64,000 nucleotides of DNA, from positions 248,001 to 312,000 of the forward strand of contig JBMNHG010000008.1 in assembly GCA_050950285.1 (NCBI GenBank). The letters run 5' to 3'. The number at the start of each line of letters is the position of its first letter. The first letter of the stretch is position 1. Both the position numbers and the translations under genes were made by a program. Positions 25,532 to 39,276 of this stretch are shown here, piece after piece. The DNA is from Kiritimatiellia bacterium. GTDB lineage: Bacteria; Verrucomicrobiota; Kiritimatiellia; RFP12; JBMNHG01. The notes below the pieces were generated by a model. The model was given only the letters and a program-made list of their open reading frames with translations, had not been told where the DNA came from and ran no database searches.

Positions 25532-25575
25532 TTGACAAGTACGGTCACCCGTGATAAGTTCGGCGCGCCAAACTT
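25532..25575 (+). promoter_or_regulatory. Sigma70 promoter with overlapping palindromic operator (candidate DtxR-family box)
   Basis: TTGACA(25532)-17 bp-TAAGTT(25555); AAGTTCGGCGCGCCAAACTT at 25556-25575. Confidence 0.7.
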
Positions 25576-25608
25576 TTAAGAGGCGAAGGAACTTGGAAGG
25601 ACGTTGCG

Positions 25609-26367
25609 ATGACGGAAGCGTTGAGCATCAGCATTGAAAACTATCTGGAGACGATCTTTCTCCTCATTCGGGAGCATACGGTTGCCCGGTCGAAGGATAT
25701 CTCGGATCGTCTCGAGGTGAACCGGTCGTCCGTGACCGGCATGTTGCAGACCCTGCGTGACCGGGGACTGGTGAACTACGAGCCCTACGGTTTCGTCACC
25801 CTGACCGCCGAGGGCGAGAAGATCGCCAGCCGCGTCCTGCGGCGGCATGAGGCGCTGCGCGACTTCATGGTGCATGTGCTGGCCATCGACGAGGCCGAGG
25901 CCGACAAGGCCGCCTGCCACATGGAGCACGGCATATCGTCGCGCGTCGTGGAGCGATTCGTCGAGTTCGCGGATTTCGTCAAGACCTGCCCCAGGGCGGG
26001 CGCGAAGTGGGTACACGGCTTCGGGTACCGTTGCGAGGAGGCGGCGGTCGAGCCGCATAACTGCGAGCGGTGCATCGAGCAGTGCCTCGAGGATGTCAGG
26101 AAGAACCAGAGGAAAGGAACAGAGAGTGTCATGACCATTCCACTCAGTGAGTTAAAACCCGGCGAGAAGGCGCAGATTGAGAAGGTCGCCGGTCAGGGTG
26201 CCGTGAAGCGGCGCATCCGCGACATGGGCGTCACCACGGGCAGCCTGGTCGAGGTGGTGCGCGTGGCCCCGCTGGGAGACCCCATCGACGTGAGGATCAA
26301 GGGCTACCATCTGTCGCTCCGCAAGGGGGAGGCGGCGGATATCAGCGTGAAGAGGGTCAACGCATGA
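25609..26367 (+). CDS. DtxR/MntR-family metal-dependent regulator with C-terminal FeoA domain
   Basis: ENYLETI, ARSKDIS..SVTGML, RRHEAL, ACHMEH; C-terminal LSELKPGEKA..RVAPLGDPI..LSLRKGEA. Confidence 0.9.
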   Translation: MTEALSISIENYLETIFLLIREHTVARSKDISDRLEVNRSSVTGMLQTLRDRGLVNYEPYGFVTLTAEGEKIASRVLRRHEALRDFMVHVLAIDEAEADKAACHMEHGISSRVVERFVEFADFVKTCPRAGAKWVHGFGYRCEEAAVEPHNCERCIEQCLEDVRKNQRKGTESVMTIPLSELKPGEKAQIEKVAGQGAVKRRIRDMGVTTGSLVEVVRVAPLGDPIDVRIKGYHLSLRKGEAADISVKRVNA

Positions 26368-26633
26368 GGTGCGCAGCCATGAACCCGGCCTTGTGGATGC
26401 CTCTGAGCCTGGTGCCGGCAGGGCACTCGGTGCGGCTGCGGCGTGTGCAGGCCGGCAGTGGGCTGGCCGCCCGGCTGACCGCCATGGGTCTGCTGCCGGG
26501 AACACAGATACAGGTGTGCCACAACGACCGCAACGGGCCGGTGATTCTCGGAATCAACGGCAACCGGCTGATGCTGGGACGCGGCATGGCGGAGAAGGTC
26601 TCGGTAGAGGATGAAGGGGTGCAGCCGTCATAA
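26364..26633 (+). CDS. feoA: Ferrous iron transport protein A (start may be 26379)
   Basis: RLTAMGLLPG..GPVIL..RLMLGRGMAEKV; between DtxR and feoB. Confidence 0.85.
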   Translation: MRCAAMNPALWMPLSLVPAGHSVRLRRVQAGSGLAARLTAMGLLPGTQIQVCHNDRNGPVILGINGNRLMLGRGMAEKVSVEDEGVQPS

Positions 26634-26665
26634 GACGGACATCCCCACTCTTTTTTTTGTGTTTA

Positions 26666-26685
26666 AAGTTTGGCGTGGCGAACAA
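26666..26685 (+). promoter_or_regulatory. Second candidate DtxR-family operator upstream of feoB
   Basis: AAGTTTGGCGTGGCGAACAA, 16/20 to reverse complement of the 25556 palindrome. Confidence 0.55.
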
Positions 26686-26733
26686 TTATCGCCTTGCCGT
26701 ACTACAGGACGCGTAACGCGCAAAGGGAAATCA

Positions 26734-28797
26734 ATGAAGACGATCATGGTTGCACTGGCCGGCAACCCGAACTCCGGCAAGACAACGCTGTTCAACAACA
26801 TCACCGGCTCGCGCCAGCATGTCGGCAACTATCCCGGCGTGACGGTCGAGAAGAAGGAAGGCACCTGCCGCCACGCGGGGCAGGATCTGAAGGTCGTGGA
26901 TCTTCCGGGCACCTACAGCCTCACCGCCTACTCGATCGAGGAGCTTGTGGCGCGCAACTTCATCATCGACGAGAAGCCGGATGTGGTTGTCAACGTGGTG
27001 GATGCCTCGAACCTCGAGCGGAACCTCTACCTCGGGGTCCAGCTTCTGGAACTCGGCGTCCCCGTGGTCTTCGCCTTCAACATGAGCGATGTGGCCCGGT
27101 CGCGGGGGATCGAGTTCGATCTCGACGCGCTGGCCTCGCGGCTGGGGGCGCCGATCGTCCCGACGGTCGGCAACAAGAATGTCGGCACCACCGAACTGCT
27201 GGACGCGGTGATCCGCGTTGCCGGGGCGGGCCAGCCCGCCTCGGCAACGGAAATCAACTACGGCGCCGATATCGAGCGCTCCATCGGGGCCGTGCGCGAG
27301 GTGGCGCAACGCCATTCCGGTCCCGCCGACGACACGGAAGCCCGCTGGACGGCCGTGAAGCTCCTCGAGAACGACAAGGAGGTCGCCGGGCGCTTCACCG
27401 CGCCGGAGGTGCGCGAGACCGTCCGCGCCGAGCAGGAGCGGATCGCGAAGCTCCTGGGCGACACGGCGGAGATGATCATCGCCGACCGCCGCTACGGCTT
27501 CATCTCCGGCGCGTGCCGCGAGACCGTGCGCTCGACGGTCGAGGCGCGGCGCACGCGCTCGGACCGCATCGACGGGATCGTCCTGCACCGCTTCTGGGGC
27601 ATCCCGATCTTCCTGGTTCTGATGTACCTGGTCTTCTGGCTCACCTTTACCGTGGGCACCCCGCCCATGGAGTGGATCGAGGGGTTCTTCGGTTGGCTGG
27701 GCGAGACGGTGTCCGGCTGGTGGCCGGCGGGCTCGGAGAGCCTGCTCAAGTCGCTGCTGGTGGACGGCATCATCAGCGGCGTCGGCGGGGTGCTCGTCTT
27801 CCTGCCGAACATCCTGCTGCTGTTCCTGGCCATCGCCGTGCTGGAGGATTCCGGCTACATGGCGCGGGCGGCCTTCCTGGTGGACCGGCTCATGCACAAG
27901 ATCGGGCTGCACGGCAAGAGTTTCATCCCCATGCTGACGGGCTTCGGCTGCTCGATTCCCGGCATCATGGCCACCCGCACGCTGGAGAGCCGGCGCGACC
28001 GGCTCACGACGATGCTGGTGCTGCCGCTGATGAGCTGCGGCGCGCGGCTGCCGATCTACGCGCTGATCATCCCGGCCTTCTTCCCGCAGGCCTGGCACGC
28101 GCCCATGCTGTGGATCATCTACCTGACCGGCATTGTCCTGGCCATAGTCTGCGCCAAGCTGCTGCGCTCGACGCTCTTCAAGGGCGAGTCCGTGCCGTTC
28201 GTCATGGAGCTGCCGCCCTACCGCATGCCCACGCTCAAGGGCGTGCTGATCCACATGTGGGAGCGCGGCAGTCTCTACCTCAAGAAGGCCGGCACGGTCA
28301 TCCTGGGTATTTCGATCCTCCTGTGGGTGCTGACCAGTTTCCCGCGGCTGAAGAGCGTGGATCCCGGCCTCTCCCCCGGGGAGCGGCAGGCCGCCGAACT
28401 CTCGCACACCATCGCCGGAAGGATCGGCCACGCCATGGAGCCGGTCATCAAGCCGATGGGGTTCGACTGGCGCATCGGCACGGCCATGATCGGCGCGTTT
28501 GCGGCGAAGGAGGTCTTCGTGGCGCAGATGGGCATCGTGTATTCCGTGGGCGAAGCCGACGAGGAGTCGGAGCCGCTGCGCGACAAGCTGCGGGCCAACT
28601 ACTCGCCGCTGGTCGGGTTCTGCATCATGCTCTTCATGCTGATCTCCGCGCCGTGCATGGCGACCATCGCGGTCACGAAGCGCGAGAGCAATTCATGGAA
28701 GTGGGCCTTGTTCCAACTGGGCGGCCTCACGGCGCTGGCCTACGTGGTGACGTTGGCCGTGTACCAGATCGGCTCGGCCCTCGGAATCGGAATCTAG
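26734..28797 (+). CDS. feoB: Ferrous iron transporter B
   Basis: GNPNSGKT, VGNYPGVTVEKK, DLPGTYSL, GFGCSIP, MSCGARLP, AAKEV. Confidence 0.96.
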   Translation: MKTIMVALAGNPNSGKTTLFNNITGSRQHVGNYPGVTVEKKEGTCRHAGQDLKVVDLPGTYSLTAYSIEELVARNFIIDEKPDVVVNVVDASNLERNLYLGVQLLELGVPVVFAFNMSDVARSRGIEFDLDALASRLGAPIVPTVGNKNVGTTELLDAVIRVAGAGQPASATEINYGADIERSIGAVREVAQRHSGPADDTEARWTAVKLLENDKEVAGRFTAPEVRETVRAEQERIAKLLGDTAEMIIADRRYGFISGACRETVRSTVEARRTRSDRIDGIVLHRFWGIPIFLVLMYLVFWLTFTVGTPPMEWIEGFFGWLGETVSGWWPAGSESLLKSLLVDGIISGVGGVLVFLPNILLLFLAIAVLEDSGYMARAAFLVDRLMHKIGLHGKSFIPMLTGFGCSIPGIMATRTLESRRDRLTTMLVLPLMSCGARLPIYALIIPAFFPQAWHAPMLWIIYLTGIVLAIVCAKLLRSTLFKGESVPFVMELPPYRMPTLKGVLIHMWERGSLYLKKAGTVILGISILLWVLTSFPRLKSVDPGLSPGERQAAELSHTIAGRIGHAMEPVIKPMGFDWRIGTAMIGAFAAKEVFVAQMGIVYSVGEADEESEPLRDKLRANYSPLVGFCIMLFMLISAPCMATIAVTKRESNSWKWALFQLGGLTALAYVVTLAVYQIGSALGIGI

Positions 28798-28807
28798 GAG
28801 GGCGGCC

Positions 28808-28975
28808 ATGTGGGAGAATCTAATCGTGGTTGTCGTTGTCGGCGCGGCAGTCTTGTTCGTCGGGCGCGCGTTGTGGCGCGACATGCGGGACGAGGCCGGC
28901 CGCGGATGCCGGGGCTGCAGGGGCTGCGACCGTCGGGACAATGCGAAAGGAGCGTGCCATGGCATCGACGCATGA
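28808..28975 (+). CDS. FeoB-associated Cys-rich small membrane protein (55 aa; not in ORF track)
   Basis: MWENLIVVVVVGAAVLFVGRALW..GCRGCRGC..C; AGGAG RBS after feoB. Confidence 0.75.
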   Translation: MWENLIVVVVVGAAVLFVGRALWRDMRDEAGRGCRGCRGCDRRDNAKGACHGIDA

Positions 28976-29315
28976 GGCCGTGTTGGCGCGGATCGAAGAG
29001 CTCTACCGCATGCTGTTCGCGCATAGCGGTTACGGCGAAATGGCGATCGAGATTCGCTTTCTGCGCAAGCACGAGAAAGAGGTGTTGATCAAGTGCGGCA
29101 AGCAGTACCGCTTCATTGTGCCTTGCGACAGTCCGACGGAAGCGGTCGACCCGGGTTGCGAAGCCGACGCGGGCGCGCATGGAAGAATTGAAAGCAGCGC
29201 GGGCGCAGGGCGTCCGCCGGAACGACGTGTACAAAAGACGAAGGAAGCACGGAACAAAGCCGATCCCGCAGGGCGGGCGGCGGCCGTGTCGGGAAAGGAG
29301 TTGCGCATCGAGTGA
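28959..29315 (+). CDS. Small hypothetical protein
   Basis: AAGGAG RBS; MASTHEAVLARIEELYRMLFAHSGYGEMAIEIRFLRKHEKEVLIKCGKQYRFIVPC. Confidence 0.7.
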   Translation: MASTHEAVLARIEELYRMLFAHSGYGEMAIEIRFLRKHEKEVLIKCGKQYRFIVPCDSPTEAVDPGCEADAGAHGRIESSAGAGRPPERRVQKTKEARNKADPAGRAAAVSGKELRIE

Positions 29316-29321
29316 AACATC

Positions 29322-29426
29322 GGTTGCGGGAGCGGTTCCCGCGCCATGGAATCTGCAAGACATGCCGGACGGGCTGACCGAGGCGGGAGCCGTCCATGAA
29401 AGAAAAACGGGCATCGAACGATGCTC
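29322..29426 (+). ncRNA. Candidate structured cis-regulatory RNA, copy 1 (5' of prepilin 1)
   Basis: 71 nt 69/71 identical to 31786-31856, plus a 3' GGGCA hairpin in both copies. Confidence 0.5.
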
Positions 29427-29449
29427 CATCAAGTGAAAGAAAAAACAGC

Positions 29450-30292
29450 ATGAAAACGAAAACGAAAACGAAAATGAACAAAAGTGGTTTCACCCTGATC
29501 GAGCTGCTGATTGTGATCGGCCTGCTCGGTGCGCTGGTCGCGCTGATCCTGCCCAGGCTGACGGCCGACCGCGAGGAGGCCATGGGCGACGTGTGCGACT
29601 ACAACCAGGCCGGCACCGTGCGCGTGCTGACCCAGTACGTGGACATGTTCGGCGCCTACCCCGCCGGCATGCACAACGGCATGCAGACGGCGTCGGGCTC
29701 ACCGGAGGCGATGGAAGGCCTCCCCGAGGCGCAGGAAGACCACATGGTCACCCAAATCGCGACCACGCGGCTGACGCTCGACGCCAACCAGGCGAAATCG
29801 CTGGTGGACGCAGGCATCAAGTCCATCGCCTACGGCACGGGCTACAACATCGTCGACGTGGCGCAGGATGTCGTCGTGGCGCAGGCTTGCGCCGCCGATG
29901 GCTCCAACCCCTGGTTTGACGACTCCGACCCTGCGGTGGAGATGACGTTCGACGGCATCGCGATCAGCGACTGGGCCCAGGCCACGGCGGGGGCGACCCC
30001 GATCTGGAACGAACAGGGCGGCGCGGGCCCGGTGGTCTGCCTCTGGATCACGCCGACCATCGACTGGGCGAAGGGCGACGGCGGCAACACCGACTGGACC
30101 AAGGGCGCCGTCGAGTACGGCATCAGCATGGAAGGCAAATGCCCGATCCCGACGGTGGCCACCAGCCAAGGCGGCGCCGACGTCGAGGTGGACTTCGCCT
30201 ACTACATGGCGTACTTCAAGGTGTACAACGACGGCACCCCCGCGCGCATGATCGGCAGCACCTGCCCGGAATGCGGCGTGCTGAATCCGTAA
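29450..30292 (+). CDS. Large type IV prepilin-like protein 1
   Basis: KSG|FTLIELLIVIGLLGALVALILP class III signal; ends TCPECGVLNP. Confidence 0.88.
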   Translation: MKTKTKTKMNKSGFTLIELLIVIGLLGALVALILPRLTADREEAMGDVCDYNQAGTVRVLTQYVDMFGAYPAGMHNGMQTASGSPEAMEGLPEAQEDHMVTQIATTRLTLDANQAKSLVDAGIKSIAYGTGYNIVDVAQDVVVAQACAADGSNPWFDDSDPAVEMTFDGIAISDWAQATAGATPIWNEQGGAGPVVCLWITPTIDWAKGDGGNTDWTKGAVEYGISMEGKCPIPTVATSQGGADVEVDFAYYMAYFKVYNDGTPARMIGSTCPECGVLNP

Positions 30293-30304
30293 CCTGAACG
30301 CAAA

Positions 30305-30359
30305 ACCCCGGCTGCGGGGGTTCACGCCCCCGCAGGCTTCACGCCCCCGCAGCCCTTTT
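30305..30359 (+). terminator. GC hairpin after prepilin 1 with duplicated 3' arm and T tract
   Basis: GGCTGCGGGGG TTCACG CCCCCGCAG...CCCTTTTG; 31 bp identical to 31731-31761. Confidence 0.6.
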
Positions 30360-30384
30360 GGAATTTTTCGTGCGCAGACATCAC

Positions 30385-30804
30385 ATGAAGACAACAACCG
30401 GAACCAACAGGCCGCTTTGCACGGCCGTGCTGGTCTTGTATGTGGCGGGGGCGTTGCTGCTACCCGCCCTTCACAAGTATTTTTCCGGGTGCGTCTGCGC
30501 CGACGGCATGAACGGCCTGGTCCGGCGGTGTTGCCCGGCCTCCCATGCGCATGGCGACAACATCGCGGACGACCCGCAAGACGCCAAGCCAGACAAGCCA
30601 CCCCACGATCCGGCCACCTGCGCGATCTGCCAGCTCGCGAACATCCCCATCCACACGGCGTCCATGGCGATCGCGACGCCGCAAAACGGGCCTGTTGAAC
30701 CCGTTCCGCCCGCCGTTTTCCGGCAACCTGACATCCAGACGCCCCGTCTGCACCCCTTCTCCTGCGGTCCTCCCGCCTGGCTTCATTCCCCAGGCATCAT
30801 CTAA
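30385..30804 (+). CDS. DUF2946-like His/Cys-rich protein
   Basis: N-terminal hydrophobic helix, LH, SHAH, HDPATCAICQL, Pro-rich tail ending SCGPPA. Confidence 0.6.
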   Translation: MKTTTGTNRPLCTAVLVLYVAGALLLPALHKYFSGCVCADGMNGLVRRCCPASHAHGDNIADDPQDAKPDKPPHDPATCAICQLANIPIHTASMAIATPQNGPVEPVPPAVFRQPDIQTPRLHPFSCGPPAWLHSPGII

Positions 30805-30896
30805 CACGAACAGACGGTCGGCGCGAACGCGCCGAGCCCGTCGATACTACGCGGCTTCCCGAAGAACGCCGCGAAAGACCAAAGGAAAATCAAGGA

Positions 30897-31721
30897 ATGA
30901 ACACAAACAAAACGATGAATTTGACGACGAACAAGAACGGCTTCACCCTGATCGAACTGCTGATCGTGATCGGCTTGCTCGGGGCGCTGGTCTCGCTGAT
31001 CCTGCCGCGACTCTCGGCCGACCGCACAGAAGCCCTGGGCGACGTGTGCGACTACAACAAGGCCGGCACGGCCCGGGCGCTCATGCAGTACGAGAACGTC
31101 TTCGGCCGCTACCCGGCCGACCTGCACAACGGCTTGCAGGGAACCGACGCCGCCGCGCTGGCGATGGAAGGCCATGCGTCCCCGCAGACGGAACGCATGG
31201 TGACCCACATCGATACGACCCGGCATCAACTGACGGCCGAGGAGGCGGCCTCGCTGTCTTCGGCGGGCATCACCAGCATTTGCTCCGGCACCGGTTTCAA
31301 CAGCACGCCGGTTGCCGCCGGCGTACACGTGGCGGTCGCGGCCGCGGCCGACGGATCCAACCCCTGGGCCGGCGGCGGGAAGCCCGAGATCACCTTCGAC
31401 GGCGTTCTCGTCAGCGACTGGGCCGACGGCTCCGGCGGGCCAAGCTGGAATCAAGGCAAGACGGGGCCGATCGTCGTGCTCTGGGTCGCGCCGACCGTCA
31501 ACTGGGCCGGTGGCGGCGGGGGCAACGGCGACTGGACCAAGGGGGCGGTCGAGCTGGGGATCAGCCTGGAAGGGCAGTGCCCCGTGCCGACGAAATCGAC
31601 GACGGGCGGCGATCCCGACTTCGCCTACTACATGGCGTACTTCAAGGCGTTCAGCGACGGCGTCACGCCGGCGCGCATGATTGGCTTGACGTGTGCCGGA
31701 GGAGGCACGCTGAACCCGTAA
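30897..31721 (+). CDS. Large type IV prepilin-like protein 2 (paralog of 29450-30292)
   Basis: NG|FTLIELLIVIGLLGALVSLILP; shared GDVCDYN, DWTKGAVE, FAYYMAYFK, PARMIG. Confidence 0.88.
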   Translation: MNTNKTMNLTTNKNGFTLIELLIVIGLLGALVSLILPRLSADRTEALGDVCDYNKAGTARALMQYENVFGRYPADLHNGLQGTDAAALAMEGHASPQTERMVTHIDTTRHQLTAEEAASLSSAGITSICSGTGFNSTPVAAGVHVAVAAAADGSNPWAGGGKPEITFDGVLVSDWADGSGGPSWNQGKTGPIVVLWVAPTVNWAGGGGGNGDWTKGAVELGISLEGQCPVPTKSTTGGDPDFAYYMAYFKAFSDGVTPARMIGLTCAGGGTLNP

Positions 31722-31730
31722 TATCACTGC

Positions 31731-31763
31731 ACCCCGGCTGCGGGGGTTCACGCCCCCGCAGCC
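31731..31763 (+). terminator. GC hairpin after prepilin 2
   Basis: GGCTGCGGGGG TTCACG CCCCCGCAGCC; no T tract. Confidence 0.45.
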
Positions 31764-31785
31764 TGTCTCGGACATGATGGCTATT

Positions 31786-31883
31786 GGTTGCGGGAGCGGT
31801 TCCCGCGCCATGGAATCTGAAAGACATACCGGACGGGCTGACCGAGGCGGGAGCCGACCGCAAACGACGGGCACGGATGTGCC
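31786..31883 (+). ncRNA. Candidate structured cis-regulatory RNA, copy 2 (5' of flavodoxin)
   Basis: Near-identical to 29322-29392; GGCAC GGAT GTGCC 3' hairpin. Confidence 0.5.
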
Positions 31884-31914: not shown

Positions 31915-32424
31915 ATGAAGATCGGAATCTATTACGGAAGTACAACCGGCAACACGAGGAGTGCCGCCGCCGCGCTAGCCGATGCGTTGAAAGGCGCGGG
32001 CGAGGTCGCCCTGCATGATGTCGGAAGCGACGGGCTCGCGGGCATGGCCGACTGCGACCTGATCCTGCTCGGCAGCTCGACGTGGGGTCTCGGAGACATG
32101 CAGGACGATTGGGTCGCACACCAGGATTTGCCGGGGATCAACCTCGAAGGAAAGACCGTTGCCGTCTTCGGCACGGGCGATCAAACGGGGTTCTCGGATT
32201 CGTTTGTCAATGCGATCGGCACCCTCGCCGATTCCGCCGAGAAGGCGGGGGCGCACCTGGTCGGTGCCTGGCCGACCGACGGCTACGACCTCCTGGAATC
32301 CACCGCCGTTCGCAATGGGCGCTTCGTCGGGCTGGCCTTGGACGAAGACAACCAGGCCGACCAAACCCAGACCCGCATCGCGCAATGGGTGGCGCAACTG
32401 AAGACGGAACTCGGACTGTGCTGA
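31915..32424 (+). CDS. fldA: Long-chain flavodoxin
   Basis: IYYGSTTGNT, LGSSTWGLG, VFGTGDQ, FVGLALDEDNQ, RIAQW. Confidence 0.92.
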   Translation: MKIGIYYGSTTGNTRSAAAALADALKGAGEVALHDVGSDGLAGMADCDLILLGSSTWGLGDMQDDWVAHQDLPGINLEGKTVAVFGTGDQTGFSDSFVNAIGTLADSAEKAGAHLVGAWPTDGYDLLESTAVRNGRFVGLALDEDNQADQTQTRIAQWVAQLKTELGLC

Positions 32425-32425
32425 C

Positions 32426-32794
32426 ATGAGAGTCTTCTGCCACCACATTTACGAGTACCAGAAAGGGGTACGCAACCTTGTGCTGCACACGCTTCCCGCC
32501 TCGACCCGCCCGGAGGTCGAGCGCAAGCTCGAAGCCAAGGGCATCGCCTACCTGGTTTGCCCCCTCGGAAAACACCAGATCAACGTGTTCTTCGGGGACG
32601 GGCACTGCGTTGAGGTCGTGCGACGCATCGGCAAATCCAGCTTGTGCGACTACACGCCGGAGGAGGACTTCATGCTGGGGATCATGCTCGGCTACGACCG
32701 GCTGCGCCAGTGCAAGCGCTATCTGGAACGCAGCCGCCTGCGGAAGCCGTCCGCGCAAGGGCCGTCCATTCTGGAGAAAGAGAAGGCGGGATGA
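32426..32794 (+). CDS. DUF2023 family protein
   Basis: HHIYEYQKGVRNLVLHT, INVFFG, TPEEDFMLGIMLGYD; adjacent to flavodoxin. Confidence 0.8.
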   Translation: MRVFCHHIYEYQKGVRNLVLHTLPASTRPEVERKLEAKGIAYLVCPLGKHQINVFFGDGHCVEVVRRIGKSSLCDYTPEEDFMLGIMLGYDRLRQCKRYLERSRLRKPSAQGPSILEKEKAG

Positions 32795-33543
32795 ACACGA
32801 AGGGGACAGGGAGCCGTCAAGGCATGGCGCCCCGACCGGCGCCGGTCGGCGGCGGGCATCGGTGCGGGGGAGGCGGCGCCTGCACGGGCTGCCTGACCGG
32901 AAACCCCTGCCCCGCCTGCCGCGAACGACAGAACGGGGCGACGGCCGCCGGTGCACAGCCGCTGGTTCGCGGCGCGGCCGGGCGTGCTGGCGGCTTCACC
33001 CTCATGGAGATGCTGATCGTGATCGGCCTTCTCGGGGCGCTGGTCGCCTTGATCCTGCCGAAGCTGACCGTGCAGAAGACCTGGGCGGTCGACGAATCCA
33101 TGGCGCCGGCCGAGATGATGGACATCCGCCGCGCCTACGCGGCGTTTCAGGCCGACTGCCTCCCGACGGCGGCGGACCGCGCCCAGATCGGGCGCTACGG
33201 CCTCGCGGTTCTGATGACGACCAACCTCGCCTGGTCAACGGGGTGGTCCTTTCCGATGACTTTCGATCCGCGCCGCGGCAAGGGCTGGCGCGGCCCCTAT
33301 TTGCAGCCGGAAGGCGTCCGCCGCGTCTATCTCGACGAGGAGGGGCAGTCCCTGGCGGGCACGGGGCCGACCGCCGAAATCCCGGTCGTTCACGACCCGC
33401 GCCATGCCACGGACGCCGCCGACGCCGCGGAACGCTTCTACCGGGTGCAGATGCGCACCAACACCCTTTACCTCGTCTATGTCGGCGCCGACGCGGTGTT
33501 CGGCTCCGACGACGACGTTGCTCAGCCATTGGAGACGCCATGA
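32791..33543 (+). CDS. Type IV prepilin-like protein 3 with long Cys-rich leader
   Basis: ATGA-coupled start; GG|FTLMEMLIVIGLLG; GWRGPYL (GspG-like motif). Confidence 0.85.
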   Translation: MNTKGTGSRQGMAPRPAPVGGGHRCGGGGACTGCLTGNPCPACRERQNGATAAGAQPLVRGAAGRAGGFTLMEMLIVIGLLGALVALILPKLTVQKTWAVDESMAPAEMMDIRRAYAAFQADCLPTAADRAQIGRYGLAVLMTTNLAWSTGWSFPMTFDPRRGKGWRGPYLQPEGVRRVYLDEEGQSLAGTGPTAEIPVVHDPRHATDAADAAERFYRVQMRTNTLYLVYVGADAVFGSDDDVAQPLETP

Positions 33544-34529
33544 GCCTGCCCTGCCATGGAACCGGTTCCAGATCCGGGCTGACGCTCATCGAGCTCGTGG
33601 TCGTGCTGGCGTTGCTGGCCGGGCTCGCGGCGATGACCTTGACCGGGGTGGGCGACCTCGGCAACCGCGGGCGGTACGACGAGACCGCCACGCGCCTGCG
33701 GCTGATCCGCGAGGCCGTGGTCGGCAACGGCGTCGAGCCCGGGCGCTTCGTGCGCGACATGGGGCGGCTGCCGATGGTGCATGACGACGCGGACGGCGTG
33801 CGGCTGGAGGAATTGTGGCGCGACGCGGGCGGCATTGGCTACGGTTCGGTGACGAACAGCCTGGCTTCCGGAGCGTGGCAATGGCCCGGGTGGGCCGCTT
33901 TCGGCGGTCAATTGCCGGGTTCGGTCGAGCTTGCCTGCGGCTGGAACGGCCCCTACCTGATGGTGGACGACCCTTCCACGGCCAAGAGCTACGACGGCTT
34001 CGGAAACGCATGGCGGGTTTCGGGAAGCGGGGCGGGCGACGTGATTGCGAGGGTGACAAGCCTCGGCTCCGACAACGCGGTCGGCGGGACGACCTGGGAC
34101 GAAGCGGACCAGACGCTCGACCTGGGCGCCCTGCTGCCGGAAACCGAGCTGACCGTCGTCGTCAAGGCCCGGAACAGCACCAACGCGCAAGACGTCGTCT
34201 GGCGCCCCGTGGAGCCGATCGATGCTTCCGCGACGGCGGCGGACACCCCGCCCTACCGGTTGCACAAATTGCACGTCGCCCTGTTCGTTCCCGAGGTCGG
34301 CGCCGACGCCGCCGCGTTGCGGCGCGCCATCCTGCCGGCGGTTTCGACCGATGTGGCCGGGTCGGTGACGTTCACCGGCCTGGCGCCGACGCGGTGCCGG
34401 GTCTTCGCCTACGGCTACCTCGGCGATCCGCCTGAGGCCGCCTCGCTTCAGACAAGCGGCCTGGAGCTTGAGCCGATGACGCTGAACCCCGGGCGCAACA
34501 TGATCACTTTGCATTTGAGGAAACCCTAG
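33540..34529 (+). CDS. Type IV prepilin-like protein 4
   Basis: RSG|LTLIELVVVLALLAGLA; FVRDMGRLP, GWNGPYL, DGFGN. Confidence 0.85.
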   Translation: MSLPCHGTGSRSGLTLIELVVVLALLAGLAAMTLTGVGDLGNRGRYDETATRLRLIREAVVGNGVEPGRFVRDMGRLPMVHDDADGVRLEELWRDAGGIGYGSVTNSLASGAWQWPGWAAFGGQLPGSVELACGWNGPYLMVDDPSTAKSYDGFGNAWRVSGSGAGDVIARVTSLGSDNAVGGTTWDEADQTLDLGALLPETELTVVVKARNSTNAQDVVWRPVEPIDASATAADTPPYRLHKLHVALFVPEVGADAAALRRAILPAVSTDVAGSVTFTGLAPTRCRVFAYGYLGDPPEAASLQTSGLELEPMTLNPGRNMITLHLRKP

Positions 34530-35915
34530 ATGAAGCTTTTTGGACACGGAGGAGCGCGGGTCGTCGCCGTTCACGACGGCCTGGCATGGCGCGCATACGA
34601 CATGCGACCGGCCCGCAGGGGGTGGGTCTGCGACGGATGCGCGGAGGAGCCCGCGCGCGGCGGGCGGCAGATGCCGAAGACGATTCTCGATTTCATCGCG
34701 AAATCCCGCGCGAAACGCCTGAGGGTGCTGCTCACGGGCGACGTACACGCCCTGGCCCCGGCCATCCCCGAGGACGCCACGGACGAGGAGCTTCACACGG
34801 CTCTGGCCTACGAGGCGCAGGGCGAAGCGGGGCTGGAGGCGGCGGGGCACCGCCTGGCGGCGGCGCGAGCCGACTTGTACGAAATGGGGGGCGAACGCGC
34901 GACGCTGCTGGCGGCGGGCGTCGAGATCGAGCGGATGGAGCGCTTCGCCTCGGACGCCGAGGGCGAAGGGGTCCGCTTCGAGGGCGCGGGCTCGCTTGAG
35001 CTGGCCGTGCTGGCCGAACATGCCCGCCGCGCGCCGAACCGGCGCTTGCTGCTGGTGCGCGAGCGCACGAGCTTCTATGCCGTGCCCGCGAACGACCCGC
35101 AGTCGTTTCTGGTCGCCACCCTGCCGCTGGGGCTCGATGCGGCGTCGGATCCGACCGCGCGGGAGCGCGCCGGACGCGCACAGGAACGGCTGCGCATGCA
35201 CGACGCCATCCCCATGACCGTGGTTCTTTGCGGCGAGGCCGAGGGGCGGCGCGAGCGCCTGGCCCCGTTTCTGGGCGCATGCGCGGATGTGGAATTTCTG
35301 GATCTCCGCGACATCGAGGAGGCCGCGCTGCGGGCCGGCGCGGGCGGTCGTGTGGGCGGCGTCGTGGAAACGTGCCCGTGGATCGGGCTGCCGCCGCCCC
35401 CGCGCGATCCGCACCGGCATGGCACCGTGATCCTGTTTGTCATTCTGGCCGCCTCGCTCGTCTGGGCCGGCGCGAGCAAGCATGGCCTGGAGGAGGACTT
35501 GTGCGCCGCGCGCGCCAGGCGCACGGCCTGGAAATCGCTGGAAGGCGAGCGCGAGAAGGCCGCGAACGAAACCAAGGCGCTGCGGGATCGCCAGTCCGCC
35601 ATCCTGGAGAGGAAGGCGCTGCTGGAAAACCGGCGCCGCCTGCCGCACGGGCTGCTGCCGCTGCTGGCGACGCTGGCGGAACGCATGCCCGCCTATTCGT
35701 GCCTGCTCTCCGTGAAGCAACGCGACGACGACGGCTTTGACGTGGTCGGCCTCACCCAATGGCAGGACGGGCTGCCCCAGCTCGACGCCGCGCTGCGCGA
35801 CATGGGGGAGCGCGAGGGCCTGAGGCGCGAATTCGGCGGACTGGAGGCGGTTGAAGAACGGCGGTACGCTCAGCGCTTCAAGTTCTCCGTGTCGCCAGGA
35901 GGGAGCCGGCCATGA
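34530..35915 (+). CDS. PilM/PilN-like (GspL-like) platform protein
   Basis: Cytoplasmic domain, single TM (VILFVILAASLVWA), coiled coil, PilN-like tail; synteny. Confidence 0.6.
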   Translation: MKLFGHGGARVVAVHDGLAWRAYDMRPARRGWVCDGCAEEPARGGRQMPKTILDFIAKSRAKRLRVLLTGDVHALAPAIPEDATDEELHTALAYEAQGEAGLEAAGHRLAAARADLYEMGGERATLLAAGVEIERMERFASDAEGEGVRFEGAGSLELAVLAEHARRAPNRRLLLVRERTSFYAVPANDPQSFLVATLPLGLDAASDPTARERAGRAQERLRMHDAIPMTVVLCGEAEGRRERLAPFLGACADVEFLDLRDIEEAALRAGAGGRVGGVVETCPWIGLPPPPRDPHRHGTVILFVILAASLVWAGASKHGLEEDLCAARARRTAWKSLEGEREKAANETKALRDRQSAILERKALLENRRRLPHGLLPLLATLAERMPAYSCLLSVKQRDDDGFDVVGLTQWQDGLPQLDAALRDMGEREGLRREFGGLEAVEERRYAQRFKFSVSPGGSRP

Positions 35916-36568
35916 TCAGGGCGATTCGACGCGCCTTGCGCCAGTGGAAGCGCGAGTTCCTGGCCTTCTGGAGCCGTTTCACGGCGTTCCACCGGATCGT
36001 GATCGGCATCCTGCTCGCTATGGGCGTTGTCTTCCTCGCCCGCACGCGCATGCTGGATCCGCTCGAAAGGGAGCTGGCCGCCGTGCGCAAGGAGCTGGCC
36101 GACAAAGGGGTTCCCGCCCGGGTGCCATCGGCGGACGCGGACGAGGAAGTCCAGCAGGAGCTGCTTCGCGCGGAGAACCTCCGGCGCAGCATCGAAAACC
36201 AGATGGGCGAGCTGGCCGCCATCGAGGCGACGACCGATTTGCGCCTGGACGCGGGCAAGGCGGACGCCCATGCCGCCCTCCTCGCAATGGCCGGCCGCCA
36301 CGGGCTGCGCGTGTTGAAAAACGCCGCCGCCGAGCCGCCGGCGGGCGGGACGATTCCCGTGGAGGCTTCCACCTACGAGCTGGCGGGGCGCTTCGCCTCC
36401 ATCTACGGATTCCTGGACGATGTGCGGCGCGGGCCGATTCTCTGGGAGCTGCGCGATCTGTCGATCGTGTTGCTGGACGAAGGCGATCGCCCCGGCGGCG
36501 CCGCCGCCCCGCCGTTGAAGCTCGGCTTCACCCTTGTGCTGCGCCGCTACGACGGAGGCGGGAAATGA
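35912..36568 (+). CDS. PilO/GspM-like protein
   Basis: TM, coiled coil, YELAGRFASIYGFL ferredoxin-like fold motif; synteny. Confidence 0.6.
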   Translation: MIRAIRRALRQWKREFLAFWSRFTAFHRIVIGILLAMGVVFLARTRMLDPLERELAAVRKELADKGVPARVPSADADEEVQQELLRAENLRRSIENQMGELAAIEATTDLRLDAGKADAHAALLAMAGRHGLRVLKNAAAEPPAGGTIPVEASTYELAGRFASIYGFLDDVRRGPILWELRDLSIVLLDEGDRPGGAAAPPLKLGFTLVLRRYDGGGK

Positions 36569-38022
36569 GCGCCAGGCGCGTCGTCGATCTTTCAAAGGTG
36601 GTCGCCTCCGAGGCGGCGCTGGCCAAGGTGCCCGGAAGGCTGGCCCGGCGCTACGGCCTCCTCCCGGTGGGGCTGGACGGCGAGACGCTGAGCGTGGTGC
36701 TGGCGAACCCCGACGACCCGATGGGCGTGATGGAGCTCGAAAGCCGCCTGGGCCTGCATGTCAAGACGCTCGCCGCATCCCGCCCGGAAGCCGTTGCGCG
36801 CGCCATCGAGCGCTACTATGCGGGCGCGGATGGCGACGAGCCCCCGACCGCGCTGGCCGCGCTCGAGCGGCTGGTCAACCGGGCGATCCAGATTCACTGC
36901 TCCGACATCCACCTCGACCCCGAGGACGGCGCGGGCGTTGCGCGCATGCGCGTGGATGGCATGATGCGCGTCGTCGGCGAATACCCGCCCGCGTTCATGG
37001 CCGACTTGGTCTCGGCCGTCAAGGTCGCCGCGCGGCTCGACATTTCCGAGCGTCGTGTGCCGCAGGACGGCCAGATCGTGATGGACAGCCTGGGCGAGTC
37101 CATCGCCATGCGCGTGGCGGTCGTCCCGACCACGCACGGGGAGAAGGTCACGCTGCGCATCCTGGCCACCGCCGCCGTGTCGGAGGAGCTCGACCGGCTC
37201 GACGCCCTGGGCATGACTGAACGCCATTACGGCATGATGCACGCGGCCCTCGAGCAGCCCTACGGCGTGATCCTCCTGTCCGGCCCGACCGGGAGCGGCA
37301 AGACGACCACCCTCTATGCCGCGTTGCGCTATTTGCGCGAACCGGGCACGAGGCATATCCTGACAATCGAGAATCCGGTCGAAATCCCGCTGAAGGGCGT
37401 CAACCAGATCCAAATCGACGGCGAGCGCATCACTTTCGCGAAGGCGCTGCGCAGCGCGTTGCGGCACGACCCGGACGTGATCATGGTGGGCGAGATCCGC
37501 GATCCGGAGACGGCCGACATCGCCGTCAAGAGCGCCCTGACGGGCCACCTGGTCCTGGCCACCCTGCACGCCAACACGTCGGTGTCCGTCATCACCCGTC
37601 TGCTGAACCTCGGGATCACCCGCGAGCTGGCCGCCTCGACCCTGCGCCTGGTCGTGGCCCAGCGGCTGGTGCGCCGCCCCTGCCCGCACTGCTCGGTCCT
37701 GGAGCCGGCGACCGAGGCCATGTGCGCGGAGTTCGGCTGGGATCCCGCCGCGCCCCCGCCGGTGCCGCGCGTGCGCGGCTGCGCGTTTTGCGGACAGCTT
37801 GGCTATGCCGGGCGGTTCGGGCTTTACGAGATGGTGCCGGTGGACCGGGAGCTGCGCGACCTGATCGTCGCGGGGGCGGCCGAGGACAGCATGGCCGACT
37901 TCGTCTTCGGGCGGCGCAAGCTCGCGACGCTGGCGCAGGATGGCGCCGAAAAGGTGAAGGCGGGGGCGACCACGCCCGAGGAAGTGCGGCGCGTGACGTT
38001 TCTCGGGGAGGATGAAAGCTGA
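36565..38022 (+). CDS. pilB: PilB/GspE assembly ATPase
   Basis: SDIHLDP, LDISERRVPQDG, GPTGSGKTTT, LRHDPDVIMVGEIRD, CPHC..CAFC. Confidence 0.9.
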   Translation: MSARRVVDLSKVVASEAALAKVPGRLARRYGLLPVGLDGETLSVVLANPDDPMGVMELESRLGLHVKTLAASRPEAVARAIERYYAGADGDEPPTALAALERLVNRAIQIHCSDIHLDPEDGAGVARMRVDGMMRVVGEYPPAFMADLVSAVKVAARLDISERRVPQDGQIVMDSLGESIAMRVAVVPTTHGEKVTLRILATAAVSEELDRLDALGMTERHYGMMHAALEQPYGVILLSGPTGSGKTTTLYAALRYLREPGTRHILTIENPVEIPLKGVNQIQIDGERITFAKALRSALRHDPDVIMVGEIRDPETADIAVKSALTGHLVLATLHANTSVSVITRLLNLGITRELAASTLRLVVAQRLVRRPCPHCSVLEPATEAMCAEFGWDPAAPPPVPRVRGCAFCGQLGYAGRFGLYEMVPVDRELRDLIVAGAAEDSMADFVFGRRKLATLAQDGAEKVKAGATTPEEVRRVTFLGEDES

Positions 38023-39257: not shown

Positions 39258-39276
39258 GGGAAAAGGAACGCAGAGA

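What the first reader, a model, noticed from the sequence alone, without database searches (positions are those of the whole stretch)
29322..31883. Twice-repeated 71-nt candidate RNA switch in front of prepilin 1 and flavodoxin
Seen: GGTTGCGGGAGCGGTTCCCGCGCCATGGAATCTG(C/A)AAGACAT(G/A)CCGGACGGGCTGACCGAGGCGGGAGCCG at 29322-29392 and 31786-31856 (2 differences), in the leaders of two unrelated genes. GGTTCCCGC can pair either with the upstream GCGGGA (local hairpin) or with the downstream GCGGGAGCC, which otherwise closes GGACGG(G)CT-GA-CCG-AGG-CGG-G-AGCCG with a GA-rich internal loop, so mutually exclusive folds are possible. Both copies are followed by a hairpin whose sequence differs but whose pairing is kept (GGGCATC-GAAC-GATGCTC vs GGCAC-GGAT-GTGCC). 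Inference: a metal/Fe-responsive riboswitch or a protein-binding antitermination site. It does not match a riboswitch class I recognise.
Basis: partly seen in the sequence, partly recalled or inferred. Interest (0 to 1): 0.78.

Follow-up and report, generated by a model that had tools for sequence, protein, structure and literature searches.

The report
New folded RNA leader before pilin genes
The 71-base stretch repeated in front of a pilin-like gene and a flavodoxin gene is a conserved, folded piece of messenger-RNA leader found in six related uncultured bacteria. It matches no described RNA family and is a candidate new gene-control element whose trigger is still unknown.

Summary
The repeat is real: 29319-29395 and 31783-31859, 77 nt at 95% identity, with a 71-nt core differing at 2 bases. 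It is not a dispersed repeat. The genome holds 2 copies, and five other genomes hold one each. It matches no Rfam family.

In 6 of 7 copies it lies between a conserved small ORF and the major pseudopilin gene of a Feo/DtxR-linked type II secretion-like island. That island is shared by six GTDB families. The flavodoxin copy occurs only in this genome.

The element is far better conserved than its surroundings: 97% against 83% with G216, and 90% against 65-84% with G337.

A covariance-model alignment of the 7 copies supports three plus-strand hairpins, P1, P2 and P3. All 146 of 146 cells pair, and 6 of 21 pairs change on both sides. Five of those six pairs rest on one divergent copy, G797.

A further hairpin before the start codon is kept in 6 of 7 copies with five different stems (G216's is el1's).

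The divergent copy lacks it.

Best reading: a new cis-acting structured leader RNA, probably a conformational switch. Its effector and output are unknown, and metal sensing is untested. No sigma-70 promoter is conserved inside it.

The parts
29322..29392 (+). Element copy 1 (el1). P1 is 29322-29345: 3 bp, a one-base bulge, 6 bp and a 5-nt loop. P2 is 29352-29369: 4 bp with a 10-nt loop. P3 is 29370-29392: 3+2+3 bp with G and GA bulges.
   Evidence: Repeat. Covariance model R1 scores 105.7 bits.
31786..31856 (+). Element copy 2 (el2): P1 31786-31809, P2 31816-31833, P3 31834-31856. It sits between the pseudopilin-2 terminator and flavodoxin.
   Evidence: R1 scores 105.3 bits. This segment is absent from the orthologous island in G216. 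G337's flavodoxin leader has no copy.
29409..29426 (+). Hairpin C of copy 1: 7-bp stem with a GAAC loop, A-rich on both sides, no U tract. It ends 23 nt before the start codon.
   Evidence: G216 has the same stem with loop AGAA. Different stems sit at the same place in G337, G757 and G771.
31870..31883 (+). Hairpin C of copy 2: 5-bp stem with a GGAT loop, unrelated in sequence to that of copy 1.
28959..29315 (+). Small ORF with a conserved core of about 60 aa (helix plus three strands) and no known family. Its stop codon lies 6 nt before P1. It precedes the element in all six genomes.
   Evidence: No Pfam or NCBIfam hit. Homologues occur in 36 of 401 genomes of the class. The model has pLDDT 69 and no PDB match at E<=0.001.
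29450..30292 (+). Pseudopilin 1, the probable major pseudopilin, GspG-like at its N-terminus. It is the gene behind copy 1.
   Evidence: Pfam N_methyl. NCBIfam GspG at E 2.1e-8, below its cutoff.
30310..30365 (+). Intrinsic terminator-like GC hairpin plus T run after pseudopilin 1.
   Evidence: Read. The scan tool did not list it. It shares 30 nt exactly with the terminator after pseudopilin 2.
30385..30804 (+). DUF2946-like ORF (weak match). It is part of the segment absent from G216.
   Evidence: Pfam E 0.002, below cutoff. Absence from G216.
30897..31721 (+). Pseudopilin 2, a paralogue 62% identical in protein to pseudopilin 1.
31736..31763 (+). Terminator-like hairpin after pseudopilin 2, ending 22 nt before copy 2.
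   Evidence: Read.
31915..32424 (+). Flavodoxin, the gene behind copy 2.
   Evidence: Pfam Flavodoxin_1, E 2.1e-20.
32426..32794 (+). DUF2023 protein, the usual partner of flavodoxin.
   Evidence: Pfam E 5.5e-42. The pair is induced by low iron in three Bacteroidetes (PMC10434189, passages seen).
25532..28975 (+). Head of the island. It starts with a promoter-like TTGACA-17-TAAGTT at 25532-25560. Then come the DtxR-type regulator with FeoA domain (25609-26367), FeoA (26364-26633), FeoB (26734-28797) and the FeoB-associated Cys-rich protein (28808-28975).
   Evidence: Pfam. The promoter was read by eye and is not listed by the scan, because the second hexamer matches only 3 of 6.
32793..42810 (+). 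Downstream type II secretion or type IV pilus-like genes on the same strand: two more pseudopilins, a T2SS E ATPase, T2SS F, a secretin and a second ATPase.
   Evidence: Pfam.

Best explanation
The element is a previously undescribed cis-acting structured RNA. It lies in the untranslated stretch just upstream of the major pseudopilin gene and, in this genome only, also upstream of flavodoxin. It is transcribed on the gene strand as part of an operon that starts at or before a conserved small ORF.

The RNA can form three hairpins in a row: P1, six bases, P2, then P3 directly. An A-rich linker follows, then a fourth hairpin of free sequence, then an A/G-rich ribosome-binding stretch.

In six of the seven copies, the 3' strand of P1 can instead pair with the 3' strand of P3 in a 9-13 bp long-range helix. 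The RNA can therefore take two exclusive shapes. I infer that a trans-acting factor chooses between them and so sets how much of the downstream gene is expressed after transcription has begun.

Shown:
- the repeat and its strand;
- its conservation and its fixed place;
- base-pair covariation for the hairpins;
- the two competing folds.

Inferred:
- that it is regulatory;
- that it switches.

Unknown:
- the effector (the neighbouring small protein, a metal or another ligand);
- the output (transcript elongation, stability or translation).
For: 1. Conservation exceeds the flanks.
- Against G216 the element window is 97.3% identical. 75-nt windows across 15.2 kb of aligned island average 82.7% (sd 7.6), and 2.1% of 14,700 windows reach 96%.
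- Against G337 it is 90% identical, while FeoB is 65%, the pseudopilin 71% and the small-ORF core 84%.
- The edges of conservation are sharp.

2. The place is fixed.
- All 7 copies lie on the gene strand.
- P3 ends 49-58 nt before the start codon in six copies and 31 nt before it in G797.
- 6 of 7 copies lie between the small ORF and the pseudopilin gene.

3. The stretch lies within the transcription unit.
- G757 and G797 have promoter-like sites upstream of the small ORF.

4. Structure.
- In the model-based alignment of 7 copies, 146 of 146 cells pair.
- 6 of 21 pairs change on both sides.
- 0 of 500 shuffles reach the observed percentage paired, number of double-change pairs or covariation score.
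- Slid controls give 38-54% paired and 0-2 such pairs.
- G797 folded on its own gives the same three hairpins.

5. Strand.
- 15 of the 146 paired cells are G-U, and hairpin C also has G-U pairs. These would be A-C mismatches on the other strand.

6. Hairpin C is kept with five different stem sequences in 6 of 7 copies.

7. Two states.
- Energies in kcal/mol, long-range helix forced against three hairpins forced, are:
  - el1: -30.5 / -26.6
  - el2: -31.8 / -23.3
  - G216: -32.7 / -22.5
  - G337: -33.9 / -21.4
  - G771: -25.3 / -21.5
  - G757: -30.8 / -22.2
- P1 plus an extended P3 is the minimum-energy fold for el1 and G771.
- In the six close copies, the four strands that take part in the competing pairings never vary. 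P2, the loops and the linker do vary. Mutually locked alternative pairing predicts this pattern.

8. No Rfam family matches.
Against: - Five of the six double-change pairs come from one sequence (G797), and that alignment was fitted to the model.
- Without G797 and the two copies found, four copies give 84 of 84 cells paired but only one double-change pair, and 246 of 500 shuffles do as well.
- P1 and P3 are invariant in six copies whose islands differ by 15-35%. This also fits recognition of the sequence itself, as DNA or as RNA.
- Folding energies are not unusual for this composition: z = -0.41 and -1.70 for the 85-nt copies.
- The long-range helix has no covariation support. G797 lacks it, and of its three variable positions one keeps a wobble and two break.
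- I found no conserved way for either fold to reach the ribosome-binding site, and no terminator follows the window copies.
- There is no expression data. No RNA run holds this DNA, so transcription of the element is inferred.
- The element was found in only 6 genomes, which are related by a shared island.
Confidence: 0.55

Rival explanations
1. Two-part module with the small ORF. The conserved small protein encoded just upstream binds the RNA, or binds RNA polymerase together with it. The pair would then work like a processive antitermination system, or like an autoregulatory protein-RNA pair. It would let transcription pass the terminators behind the pilin genes into the secretion genes.
For: - The small ORF precedes the element in all six genomes.
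- P1 starts 1, 6 and 23 nt after the small ORF's stop in G797, G000 and G771.
- Terminator-like hairpins follow both pseudopilin genes, and the downstream genes are tightly packed on the same strand.
- In another genus the same small-ORF family is followed by a different two-hairpin leader. Its first hairpin has the same build as P1, and 9 of its 13 pairs change on both sides.
- A protein-plus-RNA antitermination system at the head of long conjugation operons is in print (conAn, PMC8191782; abstract, outline and section 22 read).
- The small protein has invariant or near-invariant His, His and Cys residues.
Against: - Copy 2 works, if it works at all, 2.5 kb away from the small ORF and downstream of both terminators.
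- The small protein has no known RNA-binding or polymerase-binding family. Pfam shows only sub-threshold hits (E 0.02-0.26), the fold model has pLDDT 69, and no PDB match reaches E<=0.001.
- In G216, G337 and G757 the small ORF's stop lies 129 to about 550 nt from P1.
- Distant pseudopilin loci keep the small ORF but not the element.
- No binding test was run.
Confidence: 0.2
2. Riboswitch proper. The RNA itself binds a small ligand or metal ion such as Fe2+, and this binding shifts the balance between the two folds.
For: - Conserved unpaired bases flank conserved helices: GAA in the linker, AAG.CA in the P2 loop and a bulged G in P3.
- There are two competing folds.
- In G797, P3 is followed by five U, like a terminator used as an expression platform.
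- The context is a ferrous-iron uptake island with DtxR-type regulators, and flavodoxin is a low-iron substitute for ferredoxin. Flavodoxin-DUF2023 is strongly induced by low iron in Bacteroidetes (PMC10434189, passages).
Against: - No multi-helix junction or pseudoknot was found.
- The stems are invariant rather than covarying in the six close copies.
- Neither window copy has a terminator or a sequestered ribosome-binding site.
- A pilin and a flavodoxin share no obvious metabolite.
- Transcription of the island may already have a DtxR-type control at its promoter (a regulator gene at 25609 and a palindrome at the promoter, read by eye).
- G337's flavodoxin lacks the element.
Confidence: 0.12
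3. DNA-level site. The element would be a promoter and/or operator, for instance a repressor binding the GCGGGA-N5-TCCCGC palindrome. It would have been copied in front of flavodoxin to put that gene under the same control.
For: - Copy 2 begins 22 nt after a terminator-like hairpin, so flavodoxin would seem to need its own promoter.
- The palindrome arms are invariant while its spacer varies (GCGGT, GAGGT).
- The same hexamer recurs a third time at 29383.
- TTGCGG-17-TGGAAT matches 7 of 12 promoter positions in both copies.
- In G216 an insertion of about 500 nt separates the element from the small ORF.
Against: - The scan tool finds no sigma-70-type site here.
- The -10-like hexamer lacks the A at position 2. 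It is not kept in G771, G337 and G757, which read CTGAAT, TTGAAC and CTGAAC.
- No sigma-54-like spacing is conserved.
- In G797 the palindrome becomes asymmetric as DNA but still pairs as RNA through G-U. P3 there is rebuilt with four compensatory pairs.
- G-U pairs make the structure strand-specific.
- The hairpin next to the element is conserved only as a structure.
- The palindrome over the feo promoter shares nothing with the element.
Confidence: 0.1
4. A constitutive processing or stability module. The folded stretch would direct RNase cleavage in the A-rich linker. The downstream mRNA would then carry a protective 5' hairpin (hairpin C) and, for the pilin, a 3' terminator hairpin. This would give very high expression of two abundant proteins from inside a long operon.
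For: - Both downstream genes encode proteins usually needed in large amounts.
- Hairpin C is conserved only as a stem, between A-rich single strands.
- Terminator hairpins close the pilin cistrons.
- Differential decay within operons is well documented (PMC5927463, search listing only).
Against: - A stabiliser needs a stem, not 71 nearly invariant bases.
- It does not explain the competing pairings.
- G797 has no clear hairpin C (-0.8 kcal/mol).
- There are no RNA-end data.
Confidence: 0.1
5. No function of its own. The element would be a leftover of a local duplication or gene conversion, or the end of a mobile element.
For: - Pseudopilin 1 and 2 are tandem paralogues.
- Their 3' ends (93%) and terminators (30 nt identical) look homogenised.
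- The island moves between families.
- A strain variant joins the pilin stop to just before copy 2.
Against: - The element is conserved at the orthologous site in five further genomes, well above the flanks.
- There are compensatory changes.
- Each genome has one copy, or two here, whereas a true dispersed repeat in this genome has at least 47 copies.
Confidence: 0.03

Closest known systems
Orphan riboswitch candidates and other cis-regulatory leader RNA motifs (the kind of entry Rfam holds)
   Same: A conserved, strand-specific, folded stretch in 5' leaders. It has covarying stems, conserved loop and linker bases, competing folds, and in one copy a hairpin plus U run.
   Different: No Rfam 15 family matches, even at E<=10. 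No junction or pseudoknot was found. The stems are invariant in six copies. The ligand and the expression platform are unknown. The distribution is narrow, 6 genomes of one class.
conAn bipartite processive antitermination system of Gram-positive conjugative plasmids (PMC8191782)
   Same: A gene for a protein is followed directly by an intergenic RNA with a GC-rich part and stem-loops. Both sit at the head of a long operon for a secretion or pilus-type machine that has terminators inside it.
   Different: conAn2 is about 380 nt and AT-rich overall, while this element is 71 nt and GC-rich. No sequence or family link was tested or seen. Copy 2 lies after the terminators. Antitermination is not shown here.
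HK022 put RNA and the Bacillus EAR element (RNA-only processive antiterminators; recalled, plus the search listing for PMC9378689)
   Same: Short cis-acting RNAs made of stem-loops, highly conserved in sequence, acting on the polymerase that made them. EAR lies between genes of a surface-polymer operon.
   Different: No similarity was detected (no Rfam hit). No evidence of polymerase binding. This element has a second, competing fold.
REP/BIME/MITE dispersed intergenic repeats
   Same: A GC-rich repeated stretch with inverted repeats in intergenic DNA.
   Different: This genome has 2 copies and the other five genomes 1 each, always in one orientation and one gene context. The genome's real dispersed repeat (window 60600-60708) has at least 47 copies.
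Operator-in-promoter palindromes of metal repressors (DtxR/Fur type; recalled)
   Same: A perfect 6-5-6 palindrome with a free spacer, in an iron-uptake island, in front of a flavodoxin gene.
   Different: No conserved promoter surrounds it. It shares nothing with the palindrome over the island's own promoter. G-U pairs and rebuilt stems in G797 point to RNA.

Membership tests
Any Rfam 15 family (including NiCo/czcD, yybP-ykoY and other metal riboswitches) | Match to the family's covariance model at or near its gathering score | tested here: not met
   There were 0 matches at gathering thresholds in the whole window. At E<=10 over 29200-32000 there were only two chance rows elsewhere, mir-1181 and P10, and none on the element.
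Dispersed REP/MITE repeat | Many copies per genome, in varied contexts and orientations | tested here: not met
   G000 has 2 copies. G216, G337, G757, G771 and G797 have 1 copy each. All copies lie on the gene strand.
Riboswitch / cis-regulatory RNA switch (generic) | Conserved secondary structure supported by covariation, on the mRNA strand, in a 5' leader | tested here: met
   146 of 146 cells pair, 6 of 21 pairs change on both sides, and 0 of 500 shuffles reach this. Caveat: five of the six pairs rest on G797, and the alignment is fitted to the model. G797 alone folds the same way.
Riboswitch / cis-regulatory RNA switch (generic) | Direct binding of a ligand that changes the fold | not testable with these tools
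   Needs in-line probing or a similar assay.
Riboswitch / cis-regulatory RNA switch (generic) | An expression platform: a terminator, or a sequestered ribosome-binding site, coupled to the sensor | tested here: inconclusive
   No U tract follows P3 or hairpin C in the six close copies. In G797, P3 is followed by five U. No conserved pairing with the ribosome-binding stretch was found by eye.
Intrinsic terminator / attenuator | GC-rich hairpin followed directly by a U run on the transcribed strand | tested here: not met
   The scan lists none on the + strand at either copy. It lists the first hairpin C only on the minus strand, because the leader is A-rich. G-U pairs in that stem argue for the plus strand.
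Sigma-70 promoter | -35 and -10 hexamers with the A at position 2 and T at position 6 of the -10, kept among homologues | tested here: not met
   The scan finds 0 sites in 28700-32500. The best by-eye site matches 7 of 12 and has G at -10 position 2. The hexamer changes in 3 of 5 other genomes.
Processive antitermination RNA (put / EAR / conAn2 type) | Lies upstream of terminators inside a long operon and makes polymerase read through them | tested here: inconclusive
   The position is met for copy 1, with terminator-like hairpins at 30310-30365 and 31736-31763. It is not met for copy 2, which lies after both. Read-through activity cannot be tested here.

The most novel reading that the evidence does not exclude
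The small conserved protein and the folded RNA right behind its stop codon form a two-part control module. The protein has near-invariant or invariant His, His and Cys residues and may bind a metal. The module would be peculiar to Kiritimatiellia and would exist in at least two RNA versions. One version stands before pseudopilin genes (this element). The other stands before a signal-peptide protein gene in another genus. The protein would read a signal such as iron status and, through the RNA switch, set transcript elongation or translation of genes for abundant envelope proteins. In this genome the RNA half was copied to capture flavodoxin.
Probability: 0.2. Interest if true: 0.8.

Novelty: new variant of a known kind. 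Interest (0 to 1): 0.62.

Why it matters
Regulatory RNAs are almost unexplored in Kiritimatiellia and the wider PVC group. This would be a new structured leader class, and it has a natural experiment built in: the same RNA copied in front of an unrelated gene.

It sits in a horizontally shared island that couples ferrous-iron uptake, a secretion or pilus-like machine and flavodoxin. Its effector would therefore say how these anaerobic-digester bacteria tie surface filaments to metal supply.

If the small ORF proves to be the partner, it would add a protein-plus-RNA control module outside the Gram-positive plasmids where such a pair is known. If not, it is still a clean candidate for ligand screening.

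Tried and rejected
- **Rfam.** The whole window at gathering thresholds, and 29200-32000 at E<=10, gave nothing on the element.

- **Dispersed repeat.** Rejected.

- **Third copy in G000.** The match at C8:228439-228508 (25.6 bits) lies antisense inside the signal-peptide coding part of a plus-strand gene. I rejected it.

- **Chance BLAST fragments.**
  - G006 hit: read by eye as lying in a coding region.
  - G849 hit: read by eye as lying in a coding region.
  - G015, G013, G054 and G282 fragments: 21-29 nt, not inspected.
  - Two weak model rows: L120 9752-9846 at E 0.1 and window 46179-46238 at E 0.26. I did not count them.

- **Coding reading.** The short frames across the element change non-synonymously at 2 or 3 of the 3 variable sites, by my own reading. 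They also lack a purine-rich leader. The ATG at 29396 is missing in G216.

- **Promoters.** I looked for sigma-70, sigma-54 and, by eye, ECF-like sites. None was conserved.

- **The search for related loci.** The search with the pseudopilin alignment on genome contigs was swamped by the generic pilin N-terminus. The best of its 79 loci matched at E 5e-9, mostly over the first 30-100 residues, and I inspected none further. The call gave no help.

- **Sequencing runs.** No RNA holder was listed. Contigs of four DNA runs were laid. They show strain variants but give no element variants that I could read out.

- **Small ORF.**
  - Pfam and NCBIfam: nothing above cutoffs.
  - Atlas: only unnamed clusters.
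  - Fold model: pLDDT 69.
  - Foldseek against PDB: no match at E<=0.001.

- **Flavodoxin in other genomes.** It was not found in G216 with this query; that genome is 78% complete.

- **More divergent copies.** 45 relatives of G797 searched with model R2 yielded only G797 itself.

- **Earlier notes of this scan.** Nothing near the place or like the sequence.

Full report
**Observation**

The repeat is as described. The repeat finder reports 29319-29395 and 31783-31859, 77 nt at 95% identity.

In the whole 4.05-Mb genome, BLAST finds the second copy at E 1.1e-28. The other 20 of 22 rows are fragments of 14-28 nt. A scan of every 20-mer with up to three mismatches finds runs only at the two loci.

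By contrast, a true dispersed repeat of this genome (window 60600-60708) has at least 47 copies.

Rfam 15 gives nothing at gathering thresholds for the window, and nothing on the element even at E<=10.

**Context**

All genes run on the + strand (Pfam). In order they are:
- a DtxR-type regulator fused to a FeoA domain (25609);
- FeoA, FeoB and the FeoB-associated Cys-rich protein;
- a small ORF of no known family (28959-29315);
- copy 1 of the element;
- pseudopilin 1 (29450-30292) and a terminator-like hairpin;
- a weak DUF2946-like ORF;
- pseudopilin 2 (30897-31721) and a second terminator-like hairpin that shares 30 nt exactly with the first;
- copy 2 of the element;
- flavodoxin (31915) and DUF2023;
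- two more pseudopilins, a T2SS E ATPase, T2SS F, a secretin and a second ATPase.

By eye, the island starts with TTGACA-17-TAAGTT at 25532-25560. The scan tool does not list this site, because the second hexamer matches only 3 of 6.

Earlier notes of this scan call the organism an uncultured Kiritimatiellia bacterium. I did not check that.

**Homologues**

BLAST with the element gave these results:
- no full-length match among 60 relatives;
- one in 319 genomes of the order (G216);
- one in 401 of the phylum (G337);
- one more among 150 relatives of G337 (G757);
- one more in 401 of the class (G771).

These genome sets overlap.

An exact 22-mer scan of metagenome contigs gave four contigs, all the G216 type.

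A search with the small ORF found it in 36 of 401 genomes of the class. One of these, G797, carries a strongly diverged copy of the element, which BLAST missed but covariance model R1 finds at 42 bits, E about 1e-6.

With model R2 each of the five other genomes has exactly one copy and G000 has two. A weak third row in G000 lies antisense in a coding region, and I rejected it. Forty-five relatives of G797 gave nothing more.

The six genomes belong to six GTDB families. The island of G000 is 83-87% identical to that of G216, while the rest of the window is not alike, and the only other genome of the same genus lacks the island. So the island is shared horizontally.

**Where the element sits**

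In G000 (copy 1), G216, G337, G757, G771 and G797 it lies between the small ORF and the major pseudopilin gene.

| Copy | nt from P3 end to the start codon | nt from the preceding ORF's stop codon to P1 |
|---|---|---|
| G000 el1 | 57 | 6 |
| G000 el2 | 58 | 64 (from pseudopilin 2) |
| G216 | 55 | about 550 |
| G771 | 49 | 23 |
| G757 | 52 | 129 |
| G337 | 56 | 224 |
| G797 | 31 | 1 |

In G757, G337 and G216, extra or inserted sequence separates the small ORF from P1.

G757 and G797 have promoter-like sites upstream of the small ORF, so the element lies inside the transcription unit there.

The segment 30335-32425 (DUF2946-like ORF, pseudopilin 2, terminator, copy 2, flavodoxin) is missing from G216, where DUF2023 follows the pilin terminator directly. 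G337 has flavodoxin-DUF2023 elsewhere in its island, behind a different leader with no copy. The flavodoxin copy is thus a late addition in the G000 lineage.

**Conservation**

Against G216 the element window is 97.3% identical. The mean for 75-nt windows over 15.2 kb of aligned island is 82.7% (sd 7.6). Only 2.1% of 14,700 windows reach 96%, and all the other top windows are coding.

Against G337 the element is 90% identical, while FeoB is 65%, the pseudopilin 71% and the small-ORF core 84%.

The edges are sharp: the flanks on both sides vary freely.

Copy 1 and copy 2 differ at 2 of 71 bases, while the two pseudopilin genes between them are 70-82% identical.

**Structure**

Numbering counts from 29322 as position 1. 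The copies support three hairpins:
- P1: 1-3 with 22-24, and 5-10 with 16-21.
- P2: 31-34 with 45-48.
- P3: 49-51 with 69-71, 53-54 with 67-68, and 57-59 with 63-65.

On the first four copies, all 84 cells pair but only one pair changes on both sides, and 246 of 500 shuffles do as well. That result is not significant.

With all seven copies aligned to the model:
- 146 of 146 cells pair;
- 6 of 21 pairs change on both sides;
- 0 of 500 shuffles reach the observed percentage paired, number of such pairs or covariation score (64 of 500 for pair types);
- sliding the partners by 1-3 columns gives 38-54% paired and 0-2 such pairs.

The caveats are plain. That alignment is fitted to the model, and five of the six double changes come from G797 alone.

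Two points offset them. G797 folded on its own gives the same three hairpins, with the same 3-bulge-2-bulge-3 build in P3. The P2 series is spread over lineages: U-A in three copies, U-G in G216, and C-G in G337, G757 and G797.

Fifteen of the paired cells are G-U, which would be A-C on the other strand. The structure therefore belongs to the mRNA strand.

Behind the element, an A-rich linker leads to a further hairpin. It is present in 6 of 7 copies with five different stem sequences. G216 keeps the stem of copy 1 with another loop. G757 differs from it by three one-sided changes that keep pairing. G337, G771 and copy 2 are unrelated in sequence. No U run follows it.

**The alternative fold**

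The 3' strand of P1 can pair with the 3' strand of P3.

| Copy | Long-range helix forced (kcal/mol) | Three hairpins forced (kcal/mol) |
|---|---|---|
| G000 el1 | -30.5 | -26.6 |
| G000 el2 | -31.8 | -23.3 |
| G216 | -32.7 | -22.5 |
| G337 | -33.9 | -21.4 |
| G771 | -25.3 | -21.5 |
| G757 | -30.8 | -22.2 |

P1 plus an extended P3 is the minimum-energy fold for copy 1 and G771.

In those six copies the four strands involved never vary, whereas P2, the P1 loop, the linker and the P2 loop do. That pattern is expected if each strand has two partners. It is equally expected if the sequence itself is read by a protein.

G797 has no such complementarity. Of the three variable positions in the helix, one keeps a wobble and two break. 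The switch is therefore thermodynamically plausible but not shown by comparison.

Folding energies are ordinary for this base composition: z = -0.41 and -1.70.

**What it is not**

- *A sigma-70 promoter.* The scan finds no site. The best by-eye site, TTGCGG-17-TGGAAT, has G at the key second position of the -10. Its second hexamer changes to CTGAAT, TTGAAC and CTGAAC in other genomes. No sigma-54 spacing is conserved.
- *A coding frame.* The short frames across it show no sign of coding constraint, and an ATG at 29396 is absent from G216.
- *A terminator, in the window copies.* Neither has a terminator on the + strand. Only in G797 is P3 followed by five U.

**Mechanism**

My best reading, at confidence 0.55, is a new cis-acting structured leader RNA that governs the gene just downstream. 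It probably switches between the local hairpins and the long-range helix under the influence of a trans-acting factor. The effector and the output remain unknown.

The main rival in spirit (0.2) is a two-part module with the small ORF.
- The small ORF always precedes the element, often with its stop codon against P1.
- In another genus the same protein family is followed by a different two-hairpin leader. This occurs in 14 of 25 distinct loci examined.
- Its first hairpin has the same build as P1, and 9 of its 13 predicted pairs change on both sides.
- A protein-plus-RNA antitermination pair at the head of long operons is known from conjugative plasmids (PMC8191782; abstract, outline and section 22 read).
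- Against it: copy 2 acts far from the small ORF and after both terminators, and the protein's fold gave no lead.

The other readings are:
- a true metal riboswitch (0.12), which rests only on context, including the strong low-iron induction of flavodoxin-DUF2023 in Bacteroidetes (PMC10434189, passages);
- a DNA operator or promoter (0.1);
- a constitutive processing or stability module (0.1);
- a functionless remnant (0.03).

**Verdict**

It is a new class within a known kind of system. It is narrow in range (6 genomes of one class, tied to a mobile island), and its evidence for structure still leans on one divergent sequence.

Interest is 0.62.

Noticed in passing
window 60600-60708 (also L169 and many contigs of G216): A dispersed repeat of about 109 nt has at least 47 copies at 94-100% identity in this genome. 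These include a tandem array with a 121-nt period on contig C6 and copies spaced 559 nt apart on C11. A core of about 55 nt also occurs on more than a dozen contigs of G216.
   Followed up: partly
L139-L163 (genus g68, another family of the class), just after the small-ORF stop codon: In 14 of 25 distinct loci the same small-ORF family is followed by a different leader of about 90 nt with two hairpins. 9 of its 13 predicted pairs change on both sides. A gene for a signal-peptide protein follows instead of a pilin. The first hairpin has the same build as P1: 3 bp, a one-base bulge, 5 bp and a 5-nt loop.
   Followed up: partly
window about 25530-42800, compared with G216:C16, G337:C1, G757, G771 and G797: The Feo/DtxR, small-ORF, pseudopilin and T2SS island is shared by genomes of six GTDB families at 65-87% nucleotide identity. 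The flanking DNA is not alike, and the same-genus genome G001 lacks the island. It looks horizontally mobile.
   Followed up: partly
L033 2440-2865 (G216); also G337 upstream of its element: An insertion of about 500 nt lies between the small ORF and the element in G216. It carries short tandem 'cacttagtc'-type repeats and duplicates about 60 nt of the flank. G337 has a different insertion at the same place.
   Followed up: no
window 30292 joined to 31776 in a contig of run X18: A strain variant about 93% identical in the pilin gene joins the end of pseudopilin 1 to just before copy 2. It therefore lacks the DUF2946-like ORF and pseudopilin 2. Recombination between the two identical terminators would produce this.
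   Followed up: no
window 30191-30340 and 31617-31765: The 3' ends of the two pseudopilin genes are 93% identical and their terminators share 30 nt exactly, while the gene bodies are 70-82% alike. This pattern looks like gene conversion.
   Followed up: no
window 28959-29140 (small ORF), alignment A9: Across 16 homologues His23 and Cys47 are invariant, His6 and Glu28 nearly so, and a CGKQYR motif is invariant. Some members add a Cys-rich tail. This may be a metal site in an iron-uptake island.
   Followed up: partly
window 25555-25580 and L130 150-215: The island promoter TTGACA-17-TAAGTT is overlapped by an imperfect 20-bp palindrome. G757 has TTGACA-18-TAAGTT before its small ORF, followed by a sequence that I recall as resembling DtxR-type operators. 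That resemblance was not tested.
   Followed up: no
window 18446-19040: There are seven tandem copies of a 94-nt unit, spaced 66-120 nt apart, inside a gene whose product has AT-hook motifs and a SWIM zinc finger.
   Followed up: no
window 43212-43511 and 51077-51376: A 300-nt direct repeat at 93% identity with copies 7.9 kb apart. The first copy overlaps the start of a methyltransferase gene.
   Followed up: no
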